Made by a program: the position numbers and the translations under genes
Assembly (NCBI GenBank): GCA_024637145.1
Contig: JAGXFQ010000040.1
Location: forward strand, 37,948-101,947
Reading direction: 5' to 3'
Length of the DNA: 64,000 bases
DNA from: Desulfobulbaceae bacterium
GTDB lineage: Bacteria > Desulfobacterota > Desulfobulbia > Desulfobulbales > SURF-16
The notes under the pieces: generated by a model
Told to the model about the DNA's origin: nothing
Database searches by the model: none
What the model saw: the letters and a program-made list of their open reading frames with translations, nothing else
Shown here: positions 37,618 to 48,706 of the stretch, one piece after another
Position numbering within the stretch: position 1 is the stretch's first letter
Layout: each line of letters opens with the position of its first letter

Positions 37618-37929
37618 TCATGATAGGCAATAGATATAGGCAGGTTCCTGGAGATGGAGACTTTTCTTTAGCAGCGTCAACTTGGACCTGCAGTTCAGCG
37701 TGGATACCTTCCCTTCCGTGACAAGATGGGATATAAAGCGCTCAACGTCCTGTGCCCCAAGGGTATTCGGGTGTATCTTGCCGCCGAAATGATAAATGAA
37801 GTGCAGAATCCACTGGCAATAGGTCTGCTCAGTTCGATAGGCATAGTGACAATTCCGCAAGACCTCGCGGGTCTGGTCCATCAGTTTGAGCTCGGGATCA
37901 GGACGGAATTTCGGTTTATTTTCCACCAT
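37618..37929 (-). pseudogene. intI: Integron integrase, truncated after the N-terminal SAM-like domain
   Basis: KLMDQTREVLR..HYAYRTEQTYC.WI..FI..HP..LG..DVERFISHL..EGKVST; similarity stops near 37700 before the usual STQ.QAL.A; no catalytic domain; divergent from the cassettes. Confidence 0.88.
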
Positions 37930-38039
37930 AGCCCCTATAATAACGCAAGAAGTGGAAAAGATGCACACAATGGGTAATAAGTGGAAAAAAAAGAAGAATT
38001 TTCCACTTATTATGCTTTAAGATCACAATAAGCGGAAAA

Positions 38040-38098
38040 TCCGTCCACCTATAAGGGGTAATATAACGGACAAAATTTTACTTATTACACTGTTAGGC
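38040..38098 (+). other. attI-like site
   Basis: GTTAGGC at 38092-38098 between intI and the first cassette, exactly complementary to GCCTAAC at 38500. Confidence 0.7.
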
Positions 38099-38499: not shown

Positions 38500-38559
38500 G
38501 CCTAACAAGTTGTTGCAAAGGGGTGCGCTGACGAGCGCCTCTGAACATTGGCGTTGGGC
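38500..38559 (+). other. attC site (intact-looking, 60 bp)
   Basis: R'' GCCTAAC .. R' GTTGGGC with imperfect internal palindrome. Confidence 0.85.
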
Positions 38560-38608: not shown

Positions 38609-38803
38609 ATGAGTCAGTTGAAACTGAGCAAGGCTTTTACCCTGATGGAATTAGGGCCTGTGGTCCTCGTGACAACCCATGATGGGAAGAAAGACAACAT
38701 CATGACTATCTCCTGGACCATGGTGATGGATTTCACACCGGTATTTGCTATCACCACGGGTGAATGGAATCACTCCTTCGCGGCGTTGCAAAGCAACGCT
38801 TGA
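38609..38803 (+). pseudogene. Cassette: truncated duplicate of the flavin reductase-like gene
   Basis: Near-identical to 42831 onward until ~38790, then unrelated short repeats. Confidence 0.9.
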
Positions 38804-38942
38804 GCAACGCTTGGGAGCACGCTTGGGGTCGGGCCACGCTAACTAACTGAAAATATTGGTGTTTATTGTAGTAAATAGGCCTTTTTTGGGGCTATATTGA
38901 TGTTTTTAATGCCAAAAACGTCAATATAGGGCCAGATAACTC

Positions 38943-38993
38943 ATGGCTAGAGCAAAAAGACATACTACCCCAGGACAGATATGGCATCTTACG
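38943..38993 (+). pseudogene. N-terminal remnant of a REP-associated (RAYT/Y1-like) transposase
   Basis: MARAKRHTTPGQIWHLT matches the MARxxRxxxPGxxxHxT start typical of this family; similarity then ends. Confidence 0.55.
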
Positions 38994-39050
38994 GTTGATG
39001 GCCGTATTCCACACTGCAATGTCACATTCCATGAAGGATTCAAAGCAAAT

Positions 39051-39142
39051 GGCCAACCAAACGCTTGACTTGAGTGGACGCGAAGAACTTCGGCGGCCTT
39101 ACGGGCAAGTTCCTTGGCGCGCCATTCAGCTCAACGTTATGC
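39051..39142 (+). other. attC site
   Basis: GGCCAAC-CAAACGCTTGA..GCCATTCAGCTCAAC-GTTATGC. Confidence 0.7.
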
Positions 39143-39282
39143 ATTGTGGAGCCTGCAAAATTTAAGTTACAAATCTCTGCCATTAACCCTAGCGCAGTTG
39201 ACCTTGAGGAAGCTGTTCTGTAATCTCTATACTGGGTAGTAACAGATCGACATTGACTCCAAGGATGAGGTGCTTTCGCCCC

Positions 39283-40306: not shown

Positions 40307-41313
40307 ATGAGAGTACAGAATCTCAAAACATGGGTCCGCGTTCGTTCCAGTTTCTGGTTTATCCCGGCAGTCATGGCCAGTGGGGCGATGGTGTTGGCCT
40401 TCGCAACCGTCGCCCTGGATGAACCGGTGACGAACTGGTTGACGCTTAACTGGGGTTGGACTTTCACCGGCGGAGCGGAGGGGGCGAGCTCCTTGCTGGG
40501 GGTCATCGCCGGATCCATCACGTGTCCGTTTCTATCCAGGCCAACGAGATCGTGGCGCGGGTCGGAGCGGAGTTGATCGAGGGAATAGAGCGCCTGTTTC
40601 CGGAAAACATCGAACGGGGAGCACCACAGATTCCGAGGGAGCCACCCGACGCAGCCTTCCTCGACATGTTCGGTCGAGAGGCGCGTCCGATTGGGTCTGC
40701 CGGGGACGGCTATCTACAGCTCGTCGATGGGGGGGGTGATTGATTTGGCCATGCAAGAGGATATCGTTATTCGACTGGAGCGACGACCCGGCCCTATGTC
40801 GTTGCCACCCGCCTGCTAATGCTGGTCTGGCCAGGAAACAAGGTTGCCGACCAGCTTGTGAAGCGCATCAATTCCGCGTTCGCTTTGGGTAACCCGCGAA
40901 CTCCCGGTCAGGACATTGAGTTCGCGGTCAACCAACTTGTCGAAATCGCGATACAAGCCCTCTCCACCGGGGTGAATGACCCATTCACGACGATGACGTG
41001 TGTAGACCACTTTGGGTCGGTACTGTGCCGCTTGGCGCAACGAGATATGCCGTCGCCTTATCGATATGACCATCAGGATCAGCTTCGTGTCATTACGCCT
41101 GTCTTTACGTTCCGGGACGTCACGGACGCGGCGCTCAACCAGATCCGGCAATATGGTCGTTCCAGCACTGCGGTGACCATCCGTCTGCTGGAAACGATTG
41201 CCGAAGTTGCGGGATCCCTGCATCGGCTGGAAGACGAGGACCGCCAAGAGGTGGAAAAACGCTTTCAATCCGCGAACCAATTGTTGAGCGAGTCACCAGA
41301 TTCTAACCTCTGA
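40307..41313 (+). pseudogene. DUF2254 family membrane protein with internal deletion and frameshifts
   Basis: Fragments RSSFWFIPA..IAGS / HHVSVSIQ..GYLQ / RTPGQDIEF..QLVEIA..ALSTGVNDPFT in different frames. Confidence 0.85.
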
Positions 41314-41349
41314 ATGCACGTACTCAGCTAGCATTCCGATGCCAAATTG

Positions 41350-41408
41350 GCCGAACCATTCACTGGTGCGGACGCAAGAAGCCGCGCCGCACAGTTCAAA
41401 CGTTATAT
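41350..41408 (+). other. attC site
   Basis: GCCGAAC-CATTCACTGGTGCGG..CCGCACAGTTCAAAC-GTTATAT. Confidence 0.8.
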
Positions 41409-41820
41409 GAAAACATTCAAACACATCGATATGGTAATCATTGCAAGAAATTTACTGTTAATGGCGTCATTCTGCATTCTATCAGGCTGTGCTATCGTTC
41501 AGCCAGGTGCTGGAGGTGGCTGGATCGGATTTACTGAATCTGGGCAAGCCTCATACTATGCCGATAAGTTTCAGAACAGAAAGACTGCCAGTGGTGAGAT
41601 TTATAGGCATGATTTAAAAACTGCCGCTCATAAAAAATTGCCATTCGGAGCAAATGTAAAGGTTACCAACCGCAGTAATGGCAAAAGTGTCATTGTAAAA
41701 ATCAATGATCGCGGTCCCTTTGTTAAAGGCCGTGTTATTGATCTTTCAAGGTCTGCCTTCAGCAATATAGGCAAGACGTCAACTGGCCTAATCGACGTGA
41801 AAATTGAAGTTGTGCGGTAG
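41407..41820 (+). CDS. Cassette: RlpA-like (DPBB) lytic transglycosylase lipoprotein
   Basis: Lipobox LSGC; G.ASYY..TASGE..TAAH..LPFG..INDRGPF..RVIDLS; start 41407 or 41431. Confidence 0.93.
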   Translation: MKTFKHIDMVIIARNLLLMASFCILSGCAIVQPGAGGGWIGFTESGQASYYADKFQNRKTASGEIYRHDLKTAAHKKLPFGANVKVTNRSNGKSVIVKINDRGPFVKGRVIDLSRSAFSNIGKTSTGLIDVKIEVVR

Positions 41821-41837
41821 CACAGAAGAGGAAGAAG

Positions 41838-41903
41838 GGGACGTCCATAAGATTATAAGTTTCTCGAACGAGGGGCAGATTTTTATGATTTTATGGGCGT
41901 CCC
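41838..41903. repeat. 66-bp palindromic REP-like element C, copy 1
   Basis: GGGACGTCCATAAGATTATAA..TTATGATTTTATGGGCGTCCC. Confidence 0.9.
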
Positions 41904-42101
41904 GATTGCCCCCAGACAGAGCAGAAAAGCCGGGACACAGGCAAGCAAGTGGTGCAAAAAAATCCGTCCCCTCACCGCTGAACTATGCTAAACGGGTTTT
42001 TCTACAGACTCGTTAGTCCTCAAAAAGATAAAATTGCAAATTGCTACGTTATGAATTAATTTATAGTCACAATAGATTCATAGGTAACGGAGGGCAATAA
42101 A

Positions 42102-42320
42102 ATGGCAACAGCAGTAAGAATTTCGGAAAATCTCCTGACTGACGCAAGAAAATACAGCAAAGTAGAGCACAGGTCTATAACTGGGCAAATTGAACACTGG
42201 GCACGTATTGGAAAATGCGTAGAAGAAAACCCAGACTTAACCTATGACCTCATCAAAGAAATGCTCATTGGAATCCAAGAGTTAGATCAAGGTGAAAAAA
42301 CTGAATTCACTTTTGGGTAG
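42102..42320 (+). CDS. Cassette: ParD-like antitoxin
   Basis: MATAVRIS..A...S.VEHRSITGQIEHWARIGK..EENPDL. Confidence 0.9.
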   Translation: MATAVRISENLLTDARKYSKVEHRSITGQIEHWARIGKCVEENPDLTYDLIKEMLIGIQELDQGEKTEFTFG

Positions 42321-42325
42321 GCCCA

Positions 42326-42601
42326 ATGAAAATTTACCAATCGAGGTCATTCGCCCATAAAGTCAAAAAACTATCAAAACCAGAAAAAACTACCTTAGAT
42401 AAGGAAATTAAGAAAATCCTCAGTGATCCTGAAATTGGTACTGAGAAGAAAGGAGATCTGCGAGGCATTTTTGTCCACAAATTTAAAATTAAATCAAAAC
42501 AACATCTCCTGTCATACAGATTTAGCGAATCATCACTGGAACTAATCATGCTTGGATTGCATGAAAATTACTACCGCGACCTAAAAAAGCACCTAAAATA
42601 A
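42326..42601 (+). CDS. Cassette: RelE/ParE family toxin
   Basis: P.IG.EKKGDL.G.FVHKFK..LG.HENYYRDLK; basic; 5 bp after the antitoxin. Confidence 0.9.
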   Translation: MKIYQSRSFAHKVKKLSKPEKTTLDKEIKKILSDPEIGTEKKGDLRGIFVHKFKIKSKQHLLSYRFSESSLELIMLGLHENYYRDLKKHLK

Positions 42602-42666
42602 GGCTAATAACTCGCTACCTTTAGGTGGCATATGTATCGTTGACCGATTGAGTTGGTGGGAAGATA

Positions 42667-42732
42667 GGGACGTCCATAAGATTATAAGTTTCTCGAGCTA
42701 AGGGCAGATTTTTATGATTTTATGGACGTCCC
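42667..42732. repeat. 66-bp palindromic element C, copy 2
   Basis: Near-identical to 41838-41903; lies inside an attC-like region. Confidence 0.9.
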
Positions 42733-42830
42733 GACTGGCCCTAACTGCACTGAAGCGCGCCTCTGAACATTGGCGTTGGGCGCCTTAACATAGAGCGCGC
42801 AAGCTTGGCATGACTATCGGAGATGCTCTC

Positions 42831-43373
42831 ATGAGTCAGTTGAAACTGAGCAAGGCTTTTACCCTGATGGAATCAGGGCCTGTGGTCCTCGTGACAACCC
42901 ATGATGGGAAGAAAGATAACATCATGACTATCTCCTGGACCATGGTGATGGATTTCACGCCGGTATTTGCTATCACCACCGGTGAATGGAATCACTCCTT
43001 CGCGGCGTTGCGAAAGAATCGGGAGTGCGTCATTGCAATTCCCACCGTCGACCTATTGGATAAGGTGGTTGGCATAGGGACGTGCTCGGGCGCAGACACA
43101 GACAAGTTTGCCAAGTTCAAGCTCACACCGGTGCCGGCTAAACTCGTCAGGCCGCCCTTGATCAAGGAGTGCCTCGCCAACATTGAGTGCAAGGTCATCG
43201 ACATCGTTAAAAAGCACAACATTGTTGTGTTAGAGGCGGTTGCCGCCTACATCGATACCGCCCGCAAGGAGAAGCGCACGGTTCACGCGGTTGGTGACGG
43301 AACGTTCATCGTCGACGGGCGCAAGATTGACCGGAAGAAGATGATGGCCTCCAAGCTCCCCTCAGGCGTTTAG
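42831..43373 (+). CDS. Cassette: flavin reductase-like (flavoredoxin) protein
   Basis: GPVVLVTT..NIMTISW..ECVIAIP..G.CSG..DKF..PLIKEC.ANIECKV. Confidence 0.92.
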   Translation: MSQLKLSKAFTLMESGPVVLVTTHDGKKDNIMTISWTMVMDFTPVFAITTGEWNHSFAALRKNRECVIAIPTVDLLDKVVGIGTCSGADTDKFAKFKLTPVPAKLVRPPLIKECLANIECKVIDIVKKHNIVVLEAVAAYIDTARKEKRTVHAVGDGTFIVDGRKIDRKKMMASKLPSGV

Positions 43374-43429
43374 CGTTCATTGGCCAGCCAGGAGGAAGTC
43401 CTGGGAGCAAAAATGAAAAGCACGGCGGC

Positions 43430-43491
43430 GCTCAACAATTCGTTCAAGAGGCAGGGCCTGTCTGGTCTGCCGCCTAACTCAAACATTTGGT
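43430..43491 (+). other. attC site with mutated R' box
   Basis: GCTCAAC-AATTCGTTCAAG..GCCTAACTCAAAC-ATTTGGT (GTT lost). Confidence 0.7.
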
Positions 43492-43513
43492 CTGGGAATC
43501 TGGAGTGTCGATT

Positions 43514-44656
43514 GTGTTTTTGCGGTTTTCGCTCAAGCTAATTTTGTTGATTCTGGCGTGTGTCTCTGCTGGTGTGATTTGGCAGCAGGCACAGTTGTCT
43601 GTCTTGGCGCTCAGCCACATTGACCCGGTTCCTGAAGTCGAGGCTTTGGTTGCCGCGGAACGATACGCTGAGGCAGCCTATTACCTCGATTTTTTCCTGG
43701 AATACGACTATGTCCGTGACGATCCACAGGCTCAGGCGCTGCACGCCGAGATCGAAAGGGTGCGCAACTGTCTCTCCTACCAGACAAGCAAGCTTGGCGA
43801 AGGATTGCTTGTGGGTACCAGCGATGAAGGTATCGGCAAGACGGCGGGCCTGATCACGGATTTTTTTGTGGTCGGCGACATTCGTGATCTCGCCGCGCAG
43901 GGGACCAACTGGGCTCAGGGTGAAGATGTCGACGAGGTGGTTGCCGCTCTCGCCGGCATCGGCCTTGTAGCTACGGCTGCTCAGATCGCCAGCGGAGCAG
44001 CAACTGTTGGCACGGCGGGAGCCGCTGCTCCGGCCGTGGCGGGCAGCACGGCTGTCAAAGGCGGGGTCAGCATTCTGAAAGCCGCTCGCAAGCTCGGTAA
44101 GCTGCCGCCCTGGCTGGGTAAGACACTGATTAAAAACGCCAAAACCGTGCAGAAGACGAAGAAACTGGATTCTGTTACCGATCTGTTCAGCGATGTCTAC
44201 CGCCTTGCCCGCACGCCAGGTGGCTTGAATCTCTTGAGCAAGACTAGCGATGCCGCATCGTTAAGACGCATGGCGGCTGCTGCCGAGACATTTGGCGATT
44301 CGACGGCCACGCTCTACCGGATCGGTGGTCAGACGTTCCTGAAAACGGCCGGCCGGGCGAGTCAGCTTGGAACCGATAGCATCAAGCTAGCCTCGACCTA
44401 TGGCCCTAAAGGTCTGCGGGTGCTGGACAAGATCGGACCGACACGATTCATTAAATATTCCGCCCGGGCAGCGAAGATCGCCTACAAAGGTGATTTGTTC
44501 GACCTGATTGCTCGCTTCCTTGCCATGTTGCCGAGATGGATCCTTTATCTGCTGTTCAGTCTGGGTATCGTAGTCTGGATTCCGTGGCGATGGCTCAGGC
44601 GGCTTGGTCAGTCGGTCATTTCCGGTAAAAGAGTTATAGTCAAATCTGGTGTTTGA
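43514..44656 (+). CDS. Cassette: hypothetical membrane protein
   Basis: ~380 aa, N- and C-terminal TMs, Gly/Ala-rich central hydrophobic stretch; GTG start after GGAG (uncertain). Confidence 0.8.
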   Translation: MFLRFSLKLILLILACVSAGVIWQQAQLSVLALSHIDPVPEVEALVAAERYAEAAYYLDFFLEYDYVRDDPQAQALHAEIERVRNCLSYQTSKLGEGLLVGTSDEGIGKTAGLITDFFVVGDIRDLAAQGTNWAQGEDVDEVVAALAGIGLVATAAQIASGAATVGTAGAAAPAVAGSTAVKGGVSILKAARKLGKLPPWLGKTLIKNAKTVQKTKKLDSVTDLFSDVYRLARTPGGLNLLSKTSDAASLRRMAAAAETFGDSTATLYRIGGQTFLKTAGRASQLGTDSIKLASTYGPKGLRVLDKIGPTRFIKYSARAAKIAYKGDLFDLIARFLAMLPRWILYLLFSLGIVVWIPWRWLRRLGQSVISGKRVIVKSGV

Positions 44657-44841
44657 GAAAATTGTCATCAAATAATAACCCTGTTCAGTTCGCCTTCTTC
44701 TTGTAAAGGGTCTATCCGTAAGAAGACCGAACCCTGAGTGCCAAGAAAGGGTGTGGCAGAGAGGCACGGCCGCCCAACGGTGCCCAGCGGACTGCTGGCG
44801 CCGAAAAAAGTTGCGGCATAATTCATAATCAGGAGCTTAAA

Positions 44842-45093
44842 ATGGCTCAGAGTGTAATCGTGAAAAAAGAAGAAAAGATTGCGTCAGTGATATCAACATT
44901 GCTTCCAGATTTTACGGAAGCTCAGTTCATTGAGGCGTTCATTGAAAAATATCCAAAAGAATGGGATAGAGTCCAGAAAATTTATAGGGAACATGAGCTT
45001 CGAACAAAACCAGGGAAGAGCCACCCCATGCCAGAGCCAAGAAAATATTTAATCACTGCATTAACAATATGGAAAAAGAAAAATACCAAATAG
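44842..45093 (+). CDS. Cassette: small hypothetical protein
   Basis: 83 aa, RBS AGGAG, AT-rich, followed by attC. Confidence 0.8.
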   Translation: MAQSVIVKKEEKIASVISTLLPDFTEAQFIEAFIEKYPKEWDRVQKIYREHELRTKPGKSHPMPEPRKYLITALTIWKKKNTK

Positions 45094-45107
45094 GAACAAA
45101 AGTAATC

Positions 45108-45210
45108 GCCCAACCAAATAATGCACCGGACGGGGAGACACTTATGATTCTCGATAAGCTCAGTGGTACTCCCAAGTCTCTGCGCCGCCGGTGATGATCA
45201 TCTGTTAGCC
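45108..45210 (+). other. attC site
   Basis: GCCCAAC-CAAATAATGCACCGG..CCGGTGATGATCATCT-GTTAGCC. Confidence 0.8.
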
Positions 45211-45223
45211 ATATGAAACCGAA

Positions 45224-45850
45224 ATGAATATAGAAAATGGCATCATATCAAATTGGAATGAAGAAAAGGGTTTTGGTTTCATAACCCCAACCTCTGGCGG
45301 CAAATCATTATTTTTCCATATAAATGGCTATAGCCATCGTCATAAACGTCCCTTTAAAAATTTAGAAGTACAATACTTTACGTCAACCGATCCAAAAGGG
45401 CGGATATGTGCCATTGATGTTGCTCCTTTAAAAGGACATAAAAATAATGGGAAGGAAATAAGGCAAAAGTTCCGCTCTTTACTTCTGTTCAGTATCTGTT
45501 CAGTCGTTCTTTATTACCTGTTTGAATTAAAACTCATCCCGCTTGAGCTCGTTTTTCTATATGCAATCATGAGTGTCTTGGCATTTATAATGTACGCAAA
45601 AGACAAAAAAGCGGCGGAGTGGGGCAATTGGCGAACTCCTGAAAGTACTTTACATACATTATCACTGTTAGGTGGTTGGCCAGGTGCCAAAATTGCACAA
45701 AGTTTTTTAAGGCACAAATCCTCAAAATTATCATTCCGAGTCACATATTGGGCAACAGTAGTAGCTAATTGTTGCGCATTATCTTGGTTGATAACCCAAA
45801 AAGGCAGTAAATGGCTTCAAAGCATATTGGTAAATATAAATTTTGGTTAA
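45224..45850 (+). CDS. Cassette: cold-shock domain + DUF1294 membrane protein
   Basis: WNEEKGFGFI..FFHI; YAKDK.AA..WRTPE.TLH..GGWPGA..RHK. Confidence 0.93.
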   Translation: MNIENGIISNWNEEKGFGFITPTSGGKSLFFHINGYSHRHKRPFKNLEVQYFTSTDPKGRICAIDVAPLKGHKNNGKEIRQKFRSLLLFSICSVVLYYLFELKLIPLELVFLYAIMSVLAFIMYAKDKKAAEWGNWRTPESTLHTLSLLGGWPGAKIAQSFLRHKSSKLSFRVTYWATVVANCCALSWLITQKGSKWLQSILVNINFG

Positions 45851-45860
45851 TGAAAAAAAG

Positions 45861-45980
45861 GCATAACAATTCGCTGCCTTTAGGCGAACGAGCACGCTGG
45901 TTTTATCGGCTTCGGTCACCTAAATAAACTCGAATTTACTCAGCCTTGGCTAGGCGCGCGTCTTAGCTTTGCCGTAGGTG
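45861..45980 (+). other. attC site, degenerate R'
   Basis: GCATAAC-AATTCGCTG..TTAGCTTTGCC-GTAGGTG (one T short of GTTAGG). Confidence 0.6.
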
Positions 45981-45997
45981 CAGAGAGAAAATAAACT

Positions 45998-46783
45998 ATG
46001 ATCAATCACGCAGATATATTTTTATTTTTCCTGTTAAGCTTCTTCAAGTTTGTAGTGCCAGTCTTAATTCTTGGTGCCATAGTAAAATCTGCCACATTTA
46101 AAGGATTTATTGGCGAATTAATTGTTAAAATTTCAGCTAAGTTACTTCTCGCCAAAAACAAATATTCAATTTTTCACAATGTCACCCTGTCCACTGAAGA
46201 TGGCACAACCCAAATTGACCACATTGTAGTGTCCAGATACGGGGTATTTGTTATTGAAACTAAAAACATGAAAGGCTGGATTTTTGGCGCAGAACATCAA
46301 GAACAATGGACGCAAAAAATATTTAAACACACAACCAAATTTCAAAACCCCTTGCGCCAAAACTACAAACACACCAAGACACTTGCCGACCTCTTAAACA
46401 TTGATCTCTGTAAATTATTTTCTGTGGTGGTATTCGTCGGAGATACAACCTTTAAAACTCCTATGCCCCCCAACGTTACAGAGGGCGGCGGTTACATAAA
46501 GTTCATTAAAAGCAAAAAGGAAATAATCTTTAGCCAGCCCGAAGTAAATTCAATCATTGCAGCTATAAGAAGCGGGAAACTCAAAAACAATCTCAAGACC
46601 CACGTCAACCATATAAACCATGTGAGAAGCATAAAAGAGCAAAAGAGCGACACTAATATTCGCTCATGCCCAAAGTGTGGGAATGAAATGGTTTTGAGGA
46701 AGGCAACTAAAGGTAAAAATGCAGGAAACACCTTTTGGGGTTGCAGCCAATTCCCAAAATGTAGAACAATATTAAGCATCTAG
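45998..46783 (+). CDS. Cassette: NERD nuclease-related domain + topoisomerase-type C4 zinc finger
   Basis: TTQIDHIVVS..VIETKNM.GWIFG..FQNPLRQN; CPKCG.EMVLR..FWGCS.FPKCR. Confidence 0.93.
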   Translation: MINHADIFLFFLLSFFKFVVPVLILGAIVKSATFKGFIGELIVKISAKLLLAKNKYSIFHNVTLSTEDGTTQIDHIVVSRYGVFVIETKNMKGWIFGAEHQEQWTQKIFKHTTKFQNPLRQNYKHTKTLADLLNIDLCKLFSVVVFVGDTTFKTPMPPNVTEGGGYIKFIKSKKEIIFSQPEVNSIIAAIRSGKLKNNLKTHVNHINHVRSIKEQKSDTNIRSCPKCGNEMVLRKATKGKNAGNTFWGCSQFPKCRTILSI

Positions 46784-46952
46784 TACGCCGTAAAACTTAA
46801 ATGTACGTGTAGAATTTTGTTATTGCATACGAACCACAAAGACACGAAGGCACAAAGAAAAACATAAAAACAAGAAGCACTTCGTGCCTTTGTGCCTTTG
46901 TGGTTAAAGGCATATTTGCATAAATATACAAAACTTTAAGTGATACACTGCA
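46784..46952. mobile_element. MITE family A, copy 2 (169 bp), inserted in the R'' box of an attC
   Basis: CTAG at 46780-83 and 46953-56; lacks the 27-bp inner insert of the other copies. Confidence 0.85.
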
Positions 46953-47132
46953 CTAGCAATTAGCTACCTTTAGGCGGCAGATGTATCGCTGACCGAGTGA
47001 GCTGGCAACTCAAAGCAGATCTTGTCTACCAGAAGGATCTGTAGTTCGGCGCTTAATTGGAACCGATGGGAGAGAATCTGCAGCATGGAACGGCACTCGC
47101 TACCCCCGATGAGGTTCATTTCATCAGACAAA

Positions 47133-48023
47133 ATGGTGAGTCACAGTACGGCCTTCGTGGCACTGGCAGCGTTATGCTGGGGGCTGTCAGGCGGGATCGG
47201 CGGGATGCTCATGGCCAAGGGCTGGGACTCGCTCGTGGTGTCGTTCTGCCGGGGCGCCATCGGGCTGTTGTTTGTTCTCGTCTGGCTTGCGTTGCGTCCG
47301 CGCGGCAGCGGACTGGCCAGTCGCCGATTATGGTTCTGGTCGGTGATTGCCGGTCTCGGCGTAGCCGGCAACTTCGCTTTTTATTTCGTGAGCATCGCGG
47401 CGGGCAGTGTTGCGGTTGCGGCGACGCTGATGTATTGCGCCCCGGTGTTCGTCTATCTGGTGTCCTTCACACTCAAGCTCGAAAGACCCACTCTGCTGAA
47501 GTGGGCAGCGATTGCGATGGTAATGTTTGGCATTGTGCTGCTTACCCGTATTTACGAGATTGGGGCGGGCGGCATCACGCCGATGGGCGCCGGTGCCGGA
47601 CTGCTTGCCGGGCTCTCCTATGCGGTATTCATTTTCGGCTTTAAGTATGCGGCACCGCACGGCAGCCCGCAGGCGATTCTCGTGATAGCGTTCGCGTCCC
47701 TTGTCACCATACTTATCTGGCTGGTCGATGTCGACCAGGCCGTGGCAGTGCTGAGCACGCCGAGTTGGCCGCTGTTCGCCGTACTGGGGGTGTTTGGCGC
47801 TGGATTGTCGTTCATTCTCTATATTGTCGGCCTGAACCATACCGCGCCGGCCGTGGCCTCAATTGTGGCAATGGTCGAGCCGGTCACCGCGTCACTCTTC
47901 GGCGTCGTGGTTTTAGATGAAAGTTTGGTCGGTCTACAGATCTTCGGCATGGGACTGATTTTGGTCACAGTTACTGCGCTGAGCGTATATTCGAGCGCTC
48001 AAAATAAAGCACTTGCTGAGTAG
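47133..48023 (+). CDS. Cassette: EamA/DMT transporter
   Basis: AALCWG, Y.APVFV, VAMVEPV; about 10 TMs; start uncertain. Confidence 0.9.
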   Translation: MVSHSTAFVALAALCWGLSGGIGGMLMAKGWDSLVVSFCRGAIGLLFVLVWLALRPRGSGLASRRLWFWSVIAGLGVAGNFAFYFVSIAAGSVAVAATLMYCAPVFVYLVSFTLKLERPTLLKWAAIAMVMFGIVLLTRIYEIGAGGITPMGAGAGLLAGLSYAVFIFGFKYAAPHGSPQAILVIAFASLVTILIWLVDVDQAVAVLSTPSWPLFAVLGVFGAGLSFILYIVGLNHTAPAVASIVAMVEPVTASLFGVVVLDESLVGLQIFGMGLILVTVTALSVYSSAQNKALAE

Positions 48024-48040
48024 CGCCGGGGTAGAAGATG

Positions 48041-48106
48041 GGGACGCCCATAAGATTATAAGTTTCTCGAACTAAGGGCAGATTTTTATGATTTTATGGA
48101 CGTCCC
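48041..48106. repeat. 66-bp palindromic element C, copy 3
   Basis: Near-identical to the other copies; sits where the attC left arm is expected. Confidence 0.9.
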
Positions 48107-48167
48107 GATTGCCTCCTTTAACAACGCGCGTCACTCGGTTGGCGTTAGGCAACAAAGAGAGGAAAGC

Positions 48168-48638
48168 ATGGAGCCAATTCAAGAACCAATTACCGGTAAC
48201 GAAGACCAAGGTGGACTGACATCGCCCTATCAAGCGCTTGTTCAGTTTTATTGCGCGTTCAACCGCGGCGATCTCTCGATGATGGAGGCGAACTGGACAA
48301 ATACAGATGATATTGCAATGGATAATCCGCTTGGAGGAATAAAGCGAGGGTGGCAAGAGATACGGCCAGTATACGAGCGCATTTTTAACGGCCCGGCTGA
48401 GGTATATGTCGAGTACTATGATTACACAGTTCACGAAACGGCAGACATGTTTTATGCGGTGGGAAGAGAGCGCGGCTATTTCCGCCTTGAAGGCGATGAA
48501 GTGAAATTGGCAGTCCGTACTTCTCGCGTTTTTCAGAAGGTGTCTGGCAAATGGCGGCAGGTACACCATCATGGATCAATTGACGAGCCAAAGCTATTGG
48601 CAAGGTATCAGTCTGCGGTCCTTGGCAAGCGGGTATAG
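48168..48638 (+). CDS. Cassette: SnoaL/NTF2-like protein
   Basis: FY.AFN.GD..NW..GW.EI..WRQVHHHGS; bounded by GTTAGGCAAC (48144) and GTTGCCTAAC. Confidence 0.88.
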   Translation: MEPIQEPITGNEDQGGLTSPYQALVQFYCAFNRGDLSMMEANWTNTDDIAMDNPLGGIKRGWQEIRPVYERIFNGPAEVYVEYYDYTVHETADMFYAVGRERGYFRLEGDEVKLAVRTSRVFQKVSGKWRQVHHHGSIDEPKLLARYQSAVLGKRV

Positions 48639-48640
48639 TT

Positions 48641-48706
48641 GCCTAACGCCGCGCTGGAGAGAGACGCCGCAAAAAGCACGGCGCCCATCAGCTTGAGACG
48701 TTAACG
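48641..48706 (+). other. attC site
   Basis: GCCTAAC-GCCGCGCTGGAG..CCATCAGCTTGAGAC-GTTAACG. Confidence 0.85.

What the first reader, a model, noticed from the sequence alone, without database searches (positions are those of the whole stretch)
41830..48150. A 66-bp palindrome found only at attC positions of the array: possible second cassette-joining system
Seen: three near-identical copies (41838, 42667, 48041), same orientation, each preceded by GAAGAW(G) and followed by GAYTG, and none elsewhere in the 64 kb. Copies 1 and 3 begin 17 bp after a cassette stop codon, where R'' should be, and are followed by an orphan attC right end (GTTAGTC 42012, GTTAGGC 48144). Copy 2 joins the left arm of one attC to a right arm matching that of the first cassette's attC. 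Inference: a REP-like hairpin targets attC hairpins, which are also single-strand substrates, and marks deletion or rejoining points. That would be an IntI-independent way to remodel cassette arrays, possibly run by a RAYT-type HUH enzyme. I know of attC-targeting IS1111 elements and group IIC introns, but not of this element.
Basis: partly seen in the sequence, partly recalled or inferred. Interest (0 to 1): 0.78.

Follow-up and report, generated by a model that had tools for sequence, protein, structure and literature searches.

The report
Transposon-end palindromes at integron cassette junctions
The three 66-base palindromes are gene-less miniature copies of a small hairpin-cutting transposon found in many bacterial phyla; in this lineage they sit only at integron cassette junctions, where cassette order differs between related populations.

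Summary
Three same-strand copies lie at 41838, 42667 and 48041. A fourth, truncated copy ends contig C24 in another cassette run.

They are not a new recombination site. Each is the 5' and 3' terminal inverted repeat (starting GGGGACGTCC) of a 'TIRtron': an IS200-like Y1/HUH transposase gene (TIRYT, RAYT-related) bracketed by these repeats. The gene is deleted, so the two repeats lie head to head. Six full-length TIRtrons with these ends and a series of deletion forms occur in other genomes. The right-arm 20-mer occurs unchanged in MAGs of many phyla. In other genera the palindromes lie in ordinary intergenic DNA, so the family is not attC-specific.

In this genus every copy lies at a cassette junction. 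Next to copies 2 and 3 only the 3' part of an attC remains. Synteny with a sister genome breaks at the element's left end in 2 of 2 comparisons. Contigs from two other studies join the palindrome to further cassette contexts.

No cognate transposase gene and no full-length intI were found in this 86%-complete genome. I read the copies as transposon relics that serve as recombination and deletion points in a decaying integron. Active attC targeting is possible but unproven.

The parts
41827..41915 (+). Copy 1: core palindrome 41838-41903 plus weaker outer extensions (left GAGGAAGAAG, right GATTGCCCCCAG)
42659..42744 (+). Copy 2: core 42667-42732 plus extensions. It starts 2 nt after the R'-like GTTGGTG of the ParE cassette's attC-type site
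48029..48118 (+). Copy 3: core 48041-48106 plus extensions. Homology to the EamA cassette of G006 stops at 48032
42746..42781 (+). 3' part (apical stem, L', R' GTTGGGC) of an attC like the one at 38500-38559; its 5' part is missing
   Evidence: (D1, 96%); no hairpin fold
48119..48150 (+). Short attC remnant ending in GTTAGGC, in front of the SnoaL cassette
   Evidence: no fold (z +0.66)
41955..42018 (+). Block ending in GTTAGTC in front of the ParD/ParE cassette. It is 84% identical to C29:3228-3296. One contig of run X3 uses it as a cassette boundary
   Evidence: joint 42011 to 45204
42604..42660 (+). attC-type site of the ParDE cassette (same type as at 46953-47005 and 45852-45880)
   Evidence: (D3)
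38500..38559 (+). Canonical 60-nt attC of the first cassette, used as the reference for the half site at 42746
37618..37968 (-). Remnant of the integron integrase gene (model positions 2-63, then internal deletions); GTTAGGC of attI at about 38094

Best explanation
Identity (about 0.85). Each palindrome is a miniature, gene-less derivative of a TIRtron. A TIRtron is an IS200-like Y1/HUH transposase gene (TIRYT; TnpA-REP subclass 2.1 type, with an extra C-terminal helix-turn-helix part) bracketed by 22-26 bp terminal inverted repeats that begin GGGGACGTCC. Internal deletion has left the 5' repeat plus about 12 nt and about 8 nt plus the 3' repeat. The two repeats lie head to head in their native polarity, so the single strand folds into one long hairpin. 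Such copies would be moved in trans by the transposase on single-stranded DNA; this step is inferred from the IS200/IS605 and REP-RAYT families and was not tested here.

Why they sit here (about 0.5). This genome has no cognate transposase gene and no full-length intI gene. The copies are therefore relics in the spacers of a decaying chromosomal integron. As 88-nt direct repeats and long hairpins they act as points of homologous and microhomology-driven recombination and deletion. This has removed the 5' parts of neighbouring attC sites and re-paired left and right cassette contexts without IntI. On this reading it is a by-product of repeats in a permissive region, not a dedicated cassette-joining machine.
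For: Relatives and copy numbers. Among 61 relatives, 18 have a match at E<=0.001. Full palindromes occur in G006 (same genus), G032, G033 and G021; arms are conserved and loops vary. Arm counts are 8, 8, 21, 7 and 4 in G000, G006, G032, G033 and G021, against 0, 0, 2, 0, 0 for the reversed-pattern control.

Link to the transposase gene. Six distinct full-length genes (55-76% identical to the L024 protein, or that protein itself) are flanked by inverted arms: L024, L050=L082, L080, L085, L105, L107. They come from Desulfobulbaceae, other Thermodesulfobacteriota, Desulfobacteraceae and Methylomirabilota. The proteins hit PF01797 (E 3e-8 and 9e-11) and carry H-hydrophobic-H and the NRYKS tyrosine.

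Deletion series between the arms: about 1070 nt; 320 nt (L098, still coding residues 1-78); 190, 99 and 96 nt; about 45 nt.

Polarity. In 4 of 6 TIRtrons the 3' repeat carries ...AATCATAA... and the 5' repeat ...AATTATAA.... The window copies have the 5' type on the left and the 3' type on the right. Their loop starts GTTTC, like the 5' leader in the G006 stub.

Other points. Single arms do not fold alone. The right-arm 20-mer occurs exactly in 44 stretches from MAGs of many phyla. G006 keeps one arm plus the first codons of a TIRYT gene.

Location. 4 of 4 copies in G000 lie in cassette runs. attC remnants beside copies 2 and 3 are 3' parts only. G006 holds the reciprocal: an attC 5' half joined to the element's left end. 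G006's copy beside the flavin-reductase cassette has copy 3's left-arm and loop variants and copy 2's right flank. Synteny breaks at the left end in 2 of 2 comparisons.
Against: All 4 copies in this genome lie in regions that make up roughly 0.5% of it. Random insertion followed by decay does not explain that by itself.

Counting, there are at least 7 different left contexts. That needs several independent insertion or illegitimate-joining events inside arrays, which favours some regional preference.

An unrelated 170-nt repeat with 40 or more copies is spread over the whole genome. The array is therefore not the only place where small repeats survive.

No copy shows a simple insertion with matching left and right flanks, so the insertion step itself was never seen.

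The genome is 86% complete, so a cognate transposase gene may simply be unassembled.

The TIR start GGGGACGT fits the published GGGGWSAS motif in only 6 of 8 positions.
Confidence: 0.6

Rival explanations
1. First reader's reading, updated. The element is an active parasite of integron arrays. Its Y1/HUH transposase inserts it into single-stranded attC hairpins or just 5' of them. Its own cutting and joining reshuffles cassettes independently of IntI.
For: 4 of 4 copies in G000 and all copies in G006 lie in two cassette or variable loci. In two other studies, contigs join the palindrome to other cassette contexts. The joints run after 43401 (X3), after 44699 and 44718 (X5, X4), and from the right end into the attC interior at 45866 (X3 and X5). 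Junctions fall inside attC sites: a 3' part at copy 2 and a 5' half in G006. Variable junctions lie at the element's own ends, not at R' sites. Another TIRtron's end abuts a truncated intI at C22:7040. GC skew suggests the + strand is the lagging-strand template, the strand IS200-type elements use.
Against: Outside this genus the same family lies in ordinary intergenic DNA: beside APS kinase, PsiE, RHS, PEP-CTERM and CitMHS genes. None lies on the integrase contigs of G032 and G033. No cognate transposase gene was found in G000 or G006. In a cassette array nearly all intergenic DNA is attC, so position alone cannot show targeting. No clean insertion into an attC was seen for this element. The joints rest on one contig each, at a likeness threshold of 88, where the tool warns of repeats and other organisms.
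Confidence: 0.22
2. The palindrome rides as the content of small ORF-less cassettes, or as part of the upstream cassette's 3' end. On this reading IntI moved it, not a transposase or homologous recombination.
For: The copy 2 unit is bounded by R'-like sites on both sides: GTTGGTG and GTTGGGC here, GTTGGAC and GTTGGGC in G006. IntI-type R'-to-R' junction variants exist in the population (42011 to 45204 and 43484 to 45204, run X3).
Against: Between this genome and G006, the shared sequence starts at the element's left end, not at the R' crossover point. G006 has 46 extra nt there. The attC piece of the unit does not fold. Population junctions lie at the element's ends.
Confidence: 0.08
3. The copies are kept because the transcribed hairpin acts on the mRNA of the upstream cassette, as a 3' stabiliser or terminator, as proposed for many REPs.
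For: All copies are co-oriented with the cassette ORFs and start 10-17 nt after stop codons. The + strand hairpin is 1.7-4.9 kcal/mol more stable than the - strand hairpin.
Against: The strand asymmetry is explained by the difference between the 5' and 3' repeats of the parent element. No Rfam family matched. The only terminator-like site flagged within a palindrome was a small loop hairpin in copy 1, and none was flagged for copies 2 or 3. No RNA data were available.
Confidence: 0.05

Closest known systems
[quoted passage not shown] 2013, PMC3733652 (passages read); TnpA-REP subclass 2.1 of Quentin et al. 2018, PMC6006769 (passages read)
   Same: A Y1/HUH gene related to RAYTs is flanked by long terminal inverted repeats rather than REP hairpins. 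The repeats start with a G-rich motif and overlap the gene's 3' end. There is a C-terminal DnaA_C-like HTH part. Repeat copies elsewhere in the genome are often arranged as dimers.
   Different: The repeat sequence (GGGGACGTCCATAAAATTATAA) is not given in the passages I read and fits GGGGWSAS in 6 of 8 positions. The 20-mer is conserved across phyla. In this genus the dimers are confined to integron cassette junctions, which neither paper mentions in the passages read.
REPIN-RAYT systems (Bertels and Rainey 2011, PMC3116915, abstract seen in a search listing) and E. coli REP/BIME with TnpA-REP (PMC3333891 and PMC8266576, abstracts; attC and integron passages of the latter read)
   Same: Non-autonomous doublets of inverted repeats form a hairpin and are tied to a single-copy Y1 transposase gene that they flank.
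   Different: Each arm here is not itself a hairpin and has no GTAG-tagged stem-loop. Copy number is very low (4). No cognate gene was found in this genome.
attC-targeting mobile elements: the IS1111-attC group and group IIC-attC introns (recalled, not read here)
   Same: Mobile DNA found inside integron attC sites.
   Different: Those carry their own DDE-type transposase or reverse transcriptase and insert at a fixed attC position, leaving both halves. Here there is no gene, no fixed position and only half sites.
Integron attC sites
   Same: Imperfect palindromes between cassettes that are single-strand substrates.
   Different: The palindrome has no R''/R' core (RYYYAAC / GTTRRRY). The same sequence flanks a transposase gene and occurs in non-integron DNA.

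Membership tests
TIRtron-derived TIR repeats (TIRYT) | The same repeats flank a Y1 transposase gene in inverted orientation | tested here: met
   Six distinct full-length loci in other genomes (L024, L050=L082, L080, L085, L105, L107), plus truncated ones (L098, L084, L106, the G006 stub)
TIRtron-derived TIR repeats (TIRYT) | The protein is an IS200-like Y1/HUH enzyme (PF01797, HUH motif, catalytic Tyr) | tested here: met
   PF01797 at E 3.2e-8 (L024) and 8.6e-11 (C22 paralogue), both over the cut-off. HFH/HVH and NRYKS are visible. No PDB sequence match at E<=0.01.
TIRtron-derived TIR repeats (TIRYT) | C-terminal HTH of Bac_DnaA_C / HTH_23 / HTH_28 type (subclass 2.1) | tested here: inconclusive
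   Bac_DnaA_C at E 1.7e-4, 22 bits, below the 31.5-bit cut-off, for the C22 paralogue only. No hit for L024.
TIRtron-derived TIR repeats (TIRYT) | TIR motif GGGGWSAS | tested here: not met
   The arms start GGGGACGT, 6 of 8 positions. The paper gives the motif for some TIRs only, not all. Two other repeats in this genome do fit it: GGGGTCAG at C29 and GGGGACAC at the C24 end.
TIRtron-derived TIR repeats (TIRYT) | Cognate transposase gene in the same genome | tested here: not met
   The best match in G000 is a 48%-identical paralogue with different repeats (C22). G006 has only a stub. G000 is 86% complete.
Classical REP / REPIN | Each unit is itself a short stem-loop with a GTAG or CGTC tag | tested here: not met
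   Single arms fold at 0 to -0.9 kcal/mol with z 0.1 to 1.0
Integron attC | R''/R' cores (RYYYAAC ... GTTRRRY) pairing at the base of the hairpin | tested here: not met
   No such cores in or at the base of the palindrome
Integron attC | Occurrence confined to integrons or attC clusters | tested here: not met
   Palindromes of the family lie between ordinary genes in G032, G033 and G021
MITE | Terminal inverted repeats of a parent element, no coding capacity, intermediate deletion forms | tested here: met
MITE | Target-site duplication | tested here: not met
   None seen at any copy. This is as expected for Y1 elements.

The most novel reading that the evidence does not exclude
In this Desulfurivibrionaceae lineage a miniature Y1-transposon hairpin has become a resident of integron cassette junctions. 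It enters or replaces the 5' arm of attC sites. Through its own ends it re-pairs cassettes in arrays whose integrase is dead. That would be an IntI-independent way of cassette shuffling, either transposase-driven or by recombination between the copies.
Probability: 0.3. Interest if true: 0.7.

Novelty: new member of a known kind. Interest (0 to 1): 0.5.

Why it matters
Integron cassette arrays are thought to be rearranged by IntI at attC sites. Apart from IS1111-type elements and group IIC introns, little is known about other mobile DNA that lives in attC sites.

This locus shows a REP-like transposon derivative sitting at cassette seams, beside half attC sites, in a genome where no full-length integrase gene was found. 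The seams differ between related populations at the element's ends. If that is more than decay, it offers a route by which 'dead' arrays keep changing.

It also gives the poorly studied TIRYT enzymes a clean, cross-phylum conserved 20-22 bp substrate for biochemistry.

If it is only decay, the finding is an ordinary small repeat in a permissive region.

Tried and rejected
Rfam: gathering threshold on the window gave only a tRNA. E<=0.1 on five loci gave nothing relevant.

Promoter idea (the arms contain TATAAT/TATGAT-like hexamers): the consensus scan found no promoter at any copy.

My own attC heuristic (AAC/GTT cores plus fold) was too crude. It found 230 mostly spurious sites in the genome. 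It did not separate palindrome neighbourhoods from noise: 10 of 23 dimers had a 'hit', and only one hit was convincing. It found no complete attC within 300 nt of the three window copies. I therefore make no quantitative enrichment claim with it.

The metagenome scan with the 19-mer of the left arm plus loop start gave 33 stretches. 24 of them have an arm within 4 mismatches. It found two distinct dimers, each present in two records. It found no copy of this genus's subtype and nothing informative on attC.

The DPBB cassette of copy 1 has no close relative (best 59% amino-acid identity). No uninterrupted version could be compared. The right flanks of copies 1 and 3 were not found in G006, G003 or G001.

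PDB sequence search with the C22 paralogue gave no match at E<=0.01.

Sequencing runs: no RNA holder listed. Parts of the stretch without cover in X3-X5 are not interpreted.

I first read the sequence left of the G006 copy as an intI remnant. It is a canonical 63-nt attC of an HNH cassette.

I considered that the right extension GATTGCC... might be an R'' box or a target. It recurs in copies with unrelated flanks, and mirrored on the left side, so it belongs to the element.

Earlier notes of this scan held nothing for this place or sequence.

Supplementary files of PMC3733652 (lists and alignments of TIRYTs and TIRs) could not be seen. They might already hold this repeat.


Full report
THE OBSERVATION

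The window holds exactly three copies of the palindrome, all on the + strand. Their cores are at 41838-41903, 42667-42732 and 48041-48106. A 21-nt arm pattern with up to three mismatches hits nowhere else in the 64 kb, and none is expected by chance. As single-stranded DNA the + strand folds at -11.7 to -16.4 kcal/mol, and the - strand folds 1.7-4.9 kcal/mol more weakly.

The whole assembly (G000; 2.86 Mb, 41 contigs, 86% complete) holds one more copy at C24:60067-60135. That copy is cut within its right arm by the end of a multi-copy IS-like repeat.

An alignment of the four copies with three from the sister genome G006 shows conservation beyond the 66-nt core. There are about 11 nt on the left (GGGTRGAAGAT) and 12 nt on the right (GATTGCCCCCAG), so the element is about 88 nt long.

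THE SETTING

The region 38.1-51.3 kb is a one-directional run of unrelated small genes: BrkB, a split DUF2254, DPBB, ParD/ParE, flavin reductase, CSD-DUF1294, NERD, EamA, SnoaL, patatin, an ion channel and GNAT. It starts at an integrase remnant (37618-37968, minus strand; model positions 2-63 only), followed by a GTTAGGC attI core and a canonical 60-nt attC at 38500-38559.

The array is decaying. No full-length intI was found in G000. The fragments cover model positions 63-315 (C22), 101-315 (C3), 15-112 with two stops (C13) and 2-63 (the window). Several cassettes are broken.

The C24 copy also follows a cassette ORF, 470 nt after a canonical 75-nt attC.

WHAT THE PALINDROME IS

In 61 related genomes, 18 have a match at E<=0.001. 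Complete palindromes with conserved arms and variable loops occur in G006, G032, G033 and G021.

Single arms led to the answer. In L024 two arms in inverted orientation, about 1070 nt apart, bracket a 338-aa gene. That gene hits Pfam Y1_Tnp (IS200-like) and carries the HUH motif and the NRYKS tyrosine.

A scan of species-representative genomes with the right-arm 20-mer gave 44 stretches. They come from MAGs labelled Desulfobulbaceae, Desulfobacteraceae, Syntrophaceae, Nitrospirota, NC10/Methylomirabilota, Gemmatimonadota, Zixibacteria, Pseudomonadota and Clostridia.

Among these stretches and the relatives, six distinct full-length genes are flanked by the arms. There is also a graded series of internal deletions: 320 nt (still coding residues 1-78), 190, 99, 96 and about 45 nt between the arms.

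The two ends of the parent element differ slightly. The 5' repeat has ...AATTATAA... and, in 4 of 6 elements, the 3' repeat has ...AATCATAA.... The window copies carry the 5' type on the left and the 3' type on the right. Their loop begins like the 5' leader seen in G006. This difference also explains the G-T 'wobbles' that make the + strand hairpin the stronger one.

A single arm does not fold by itself. So these are terminal inverted repeats, not REP hairpins.

WHAT IS KNOWN

This arrangement is in print as 'TIRtron' and 'TIRYT'. RAYT-like Y1 genes are flanked by long TIRs, some of which form moderately abundant repeat families organised as dimers (PMC3733652, passages read). The group corresponds to TnpA-REP subclass 2.1, which has a DnaA_C-like C-terminal HTH (PMC6006769, passages read).

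Only these two works hold the words TIRYT or TIRtron in the library searched. A search for RAYT together with attC or integron found no paper linking them. The one REP paper that mentions attC does so only as an analogy. A search on attC, MITE and cassette array listed only reviews and resistance-plasmid papers by title.

IS IT attC-SPECIFIC?

As a family, it is not. I looked at 9 dimers in 7 loci of G032, G033 and G021. Their neighbours are a PEGA protein and APS kinase, PsiE and a PRiA4-like protein, RHS-repeat proteins, a PEP-CTERM protein, and a CitMHS transporter. Others have no Pfam match. None of the arms lies on the contigs that carry an integron integrase over the cut-off (G032:C16 and G033:C38). 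One caveat applies: G032:C16 ends 330 nt beyond intI, so its array is not assembled there. In one Desulfobulbaceae MAG, single arms sit between polysaccharide-synthesis-type genes.

In this genus the picture differs. All 4 copies of G000 are in the two cassette runs. In G006 one copy lies in the orthologous integron locus. Two full copies and one partial copy lie in the variable locus that corresponds to the C24 end of G000.

WHAT LIES AT THE JUNCTIONS

Copy 2: its right flank is the 3' part of an attC like the one at 38500, followed by a second copy of the flavin-reductase cassette (96% over 269 nt). The 5' part of that attC is missing. The left flank is the end of the ParE cassette's attC-type site.

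G006 has the same element, half attC and flavin-reductase block, but behind a different cassette (HNH, with an intact 63-nt attC). The homology starts at the element's left end. That G006 copy shares copy 3's left-arm and loop variants and copy 2's right flank. This hints at crossover between copies, although only a few sites are informative.

Copy 3: the EamA cassette of G006 is 92% identical in protein and shares its 3' end up to 10 nt past the stop. It then diverges exactly where the element begins (48032). A homologue in another family (G040) keeps the same 3' leader and a normal attC about 95 nt downstream.

The pieces right of copies 1-3 do not fold as hairpins.

G006 also holds the reciprocal product. 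An attC 5' half (R'' and L'' up to the loop) is joined to the element's left extension and its first 10 nt, followed by an IS-like end.

POPULATION DATA

Contigs of four public runs were laid on 41300-48700 at a likeness threshold of 88.

X1 holds 0.94 of the sampled words and is probably the source sample. It shows no alternative joints.

Runs from two other studies show the palindrome's left end joined behind 43401 (X3; 1 contig, side 32), behind 44699 (X5; 1 contig, side 36) and behind 44718 (X4; listed only among the between-letters rows). Its right end is joined to 45866, inside the attC in front of the NERD cassette. That joint comes from position 41912 in X3 (1 contig, side 41) and from 48113 in X5 (between-letters row).

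Classical R'-to-R' variants also appear: 42011 to 45204 and 43484 to 45204 (X3, one contig each). These suggest that GTTAGTC at 42012 has served as a cassette boundary.

Each joint rests on one contig. The tool warns that joints below a likeness of 95 can stem from repeats or other organisms. I treat them as suggestive only.

A CONTROL IN THE SAME ARRAY

A 170-nt repeat at 46783-46952 is absent at that place in G006 and in contigs of X3, X4 and X5. It sits inside the R'' core of the NERD cassette's attC, with a CTAG duplication and both attC halves kept. It has 40 or more copies spread over the genome.

This shows what a plain insertion into an attC looks like. It also shows that small repeats are not restricted to the array, which makes the palindromes' restriction notable.

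HOW IT MOST LIKELY WORKS

Shown here: the palindromes are the two ends of a Y1 transposon with the gene deleted.

Inferred from the IS200/IS605 and REP-RAYT literature: such copies are moved in trans as single strands.

G000 has no cognate gene. Its closest gene (C22:4166-5182; 48% identity) is flanked by different repeats, which share only the start GGGGACGT. G006 keeps only a stub. The copies are therefore probably relics.

I think that direct 88-nt repeats and long hairpins in a region with little selection best explain the pattern. That pattern is the half attC sites, the microhomologies at left junctions (GGGGT at copy 3, GGAAG at 43394-43398) and the re-paired flanks.

The alternative is that the element truly prefers attC or cassette DNA. 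That would account better for its restriction to arrays and for the many distinct contexts. I give it about 0.2-0.3. The positive GC skew of the + strand (9 of 10 ten-kb bins) fits the strand rule of IS200-type elements, but this is weak evidence.

VERDICT

The claims of an unknown element and of attC specificity for the family are not supported. A 'second cassette-joining system' is not shown, but in this lineage the copies do mark IntI-independent rejoining points.

Noticed in passing
window 46783-46952 (palindromic core 46832-46905): A 170-nt repeat with CACAAAG-type arm repeats is inserted into the R'' core of the NERD cassette's attC, with a CTAG duplication. The site is empty in G006 and in contigs of runs X3-X5. 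The repeat has 40 or more copies (170-198 nt) across G000, many at contig ends.
   Followed up: partly
G000:C22:4166-7780 (loci L043, L005): A resident TIRtron: a 338-aa Y1 gene flanked by perfect 21-bp inverted repeats (GGGACGTAGTTGATTTGTTGA). A HipA/HipB-like pair sits next to it. A second copy of its 47-nt right end directly abuts an integron integrase gene that lacks its first 60-75 codons.
   Followed up: partly
G000 contigs C3, C13, C22 and window 37618-37968: Four integron-integrase fragments and no full-length gene in the 86%-complete assembly. The window's copy is an internally deleted relative (85-88% DNA identity) of the C3 copy.
   Followed up: partly
G000:C24:60124-60328; also the ends of C35 and C39, and C30:20283-20316: A multi-copy IS-like element cuts the fourth palindrome copy. 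Its end carries GGGGACAC (which fits GGGGWSAS), preceded by short GAGTTCCGG repeats. A similar end follows a 10-nt stump of the palindrome in G006.
   Followed up: partly
G000:C29:2223-3300 (locus L042) and window 41955-42018: A second, apparently frameshifted TIRYT-like gene has GGGGTCAGGC-type repeats. It is followed by a 72-nt block 84% identical to the block between copy 1 and ParDE, and then by a HigB/HigA pair. By eye the block resembles the attI-proximal sequence at 38030-38098.
   Followed up: partly
window 38792-39250: The first flavin-reductase copy is truncated at 38792 by a repeat that recurs at C12:107933-108105 (93%) and on C17, C39, C11 and C38. The repeat starts with the first codons of another IS200-like protein (MARAKRHTTPGQIWHLT...).
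   Followed up: no
loci L075, L079, L080, L095, L103 (one 115-kb contig of a Desulfobulbaceae MAG) and L074: There are at least 14 single right arms on that one contig, and seven same-strand arms in L074. They are spaced 0.4-2 kb apart. Some abut ATG start codons and some are preceded by a lineage-specific hairpin or low-complexity repeat. These are single-arm composite repeats, not dimers.
   Followed up: no
loci L015, L017, L018, L031: Single right arms directly follow a conserved structured segment of about 90 nt that ends in GTTCGGC or GTTAGGC. It had no Rfam match.
   Followed up: no
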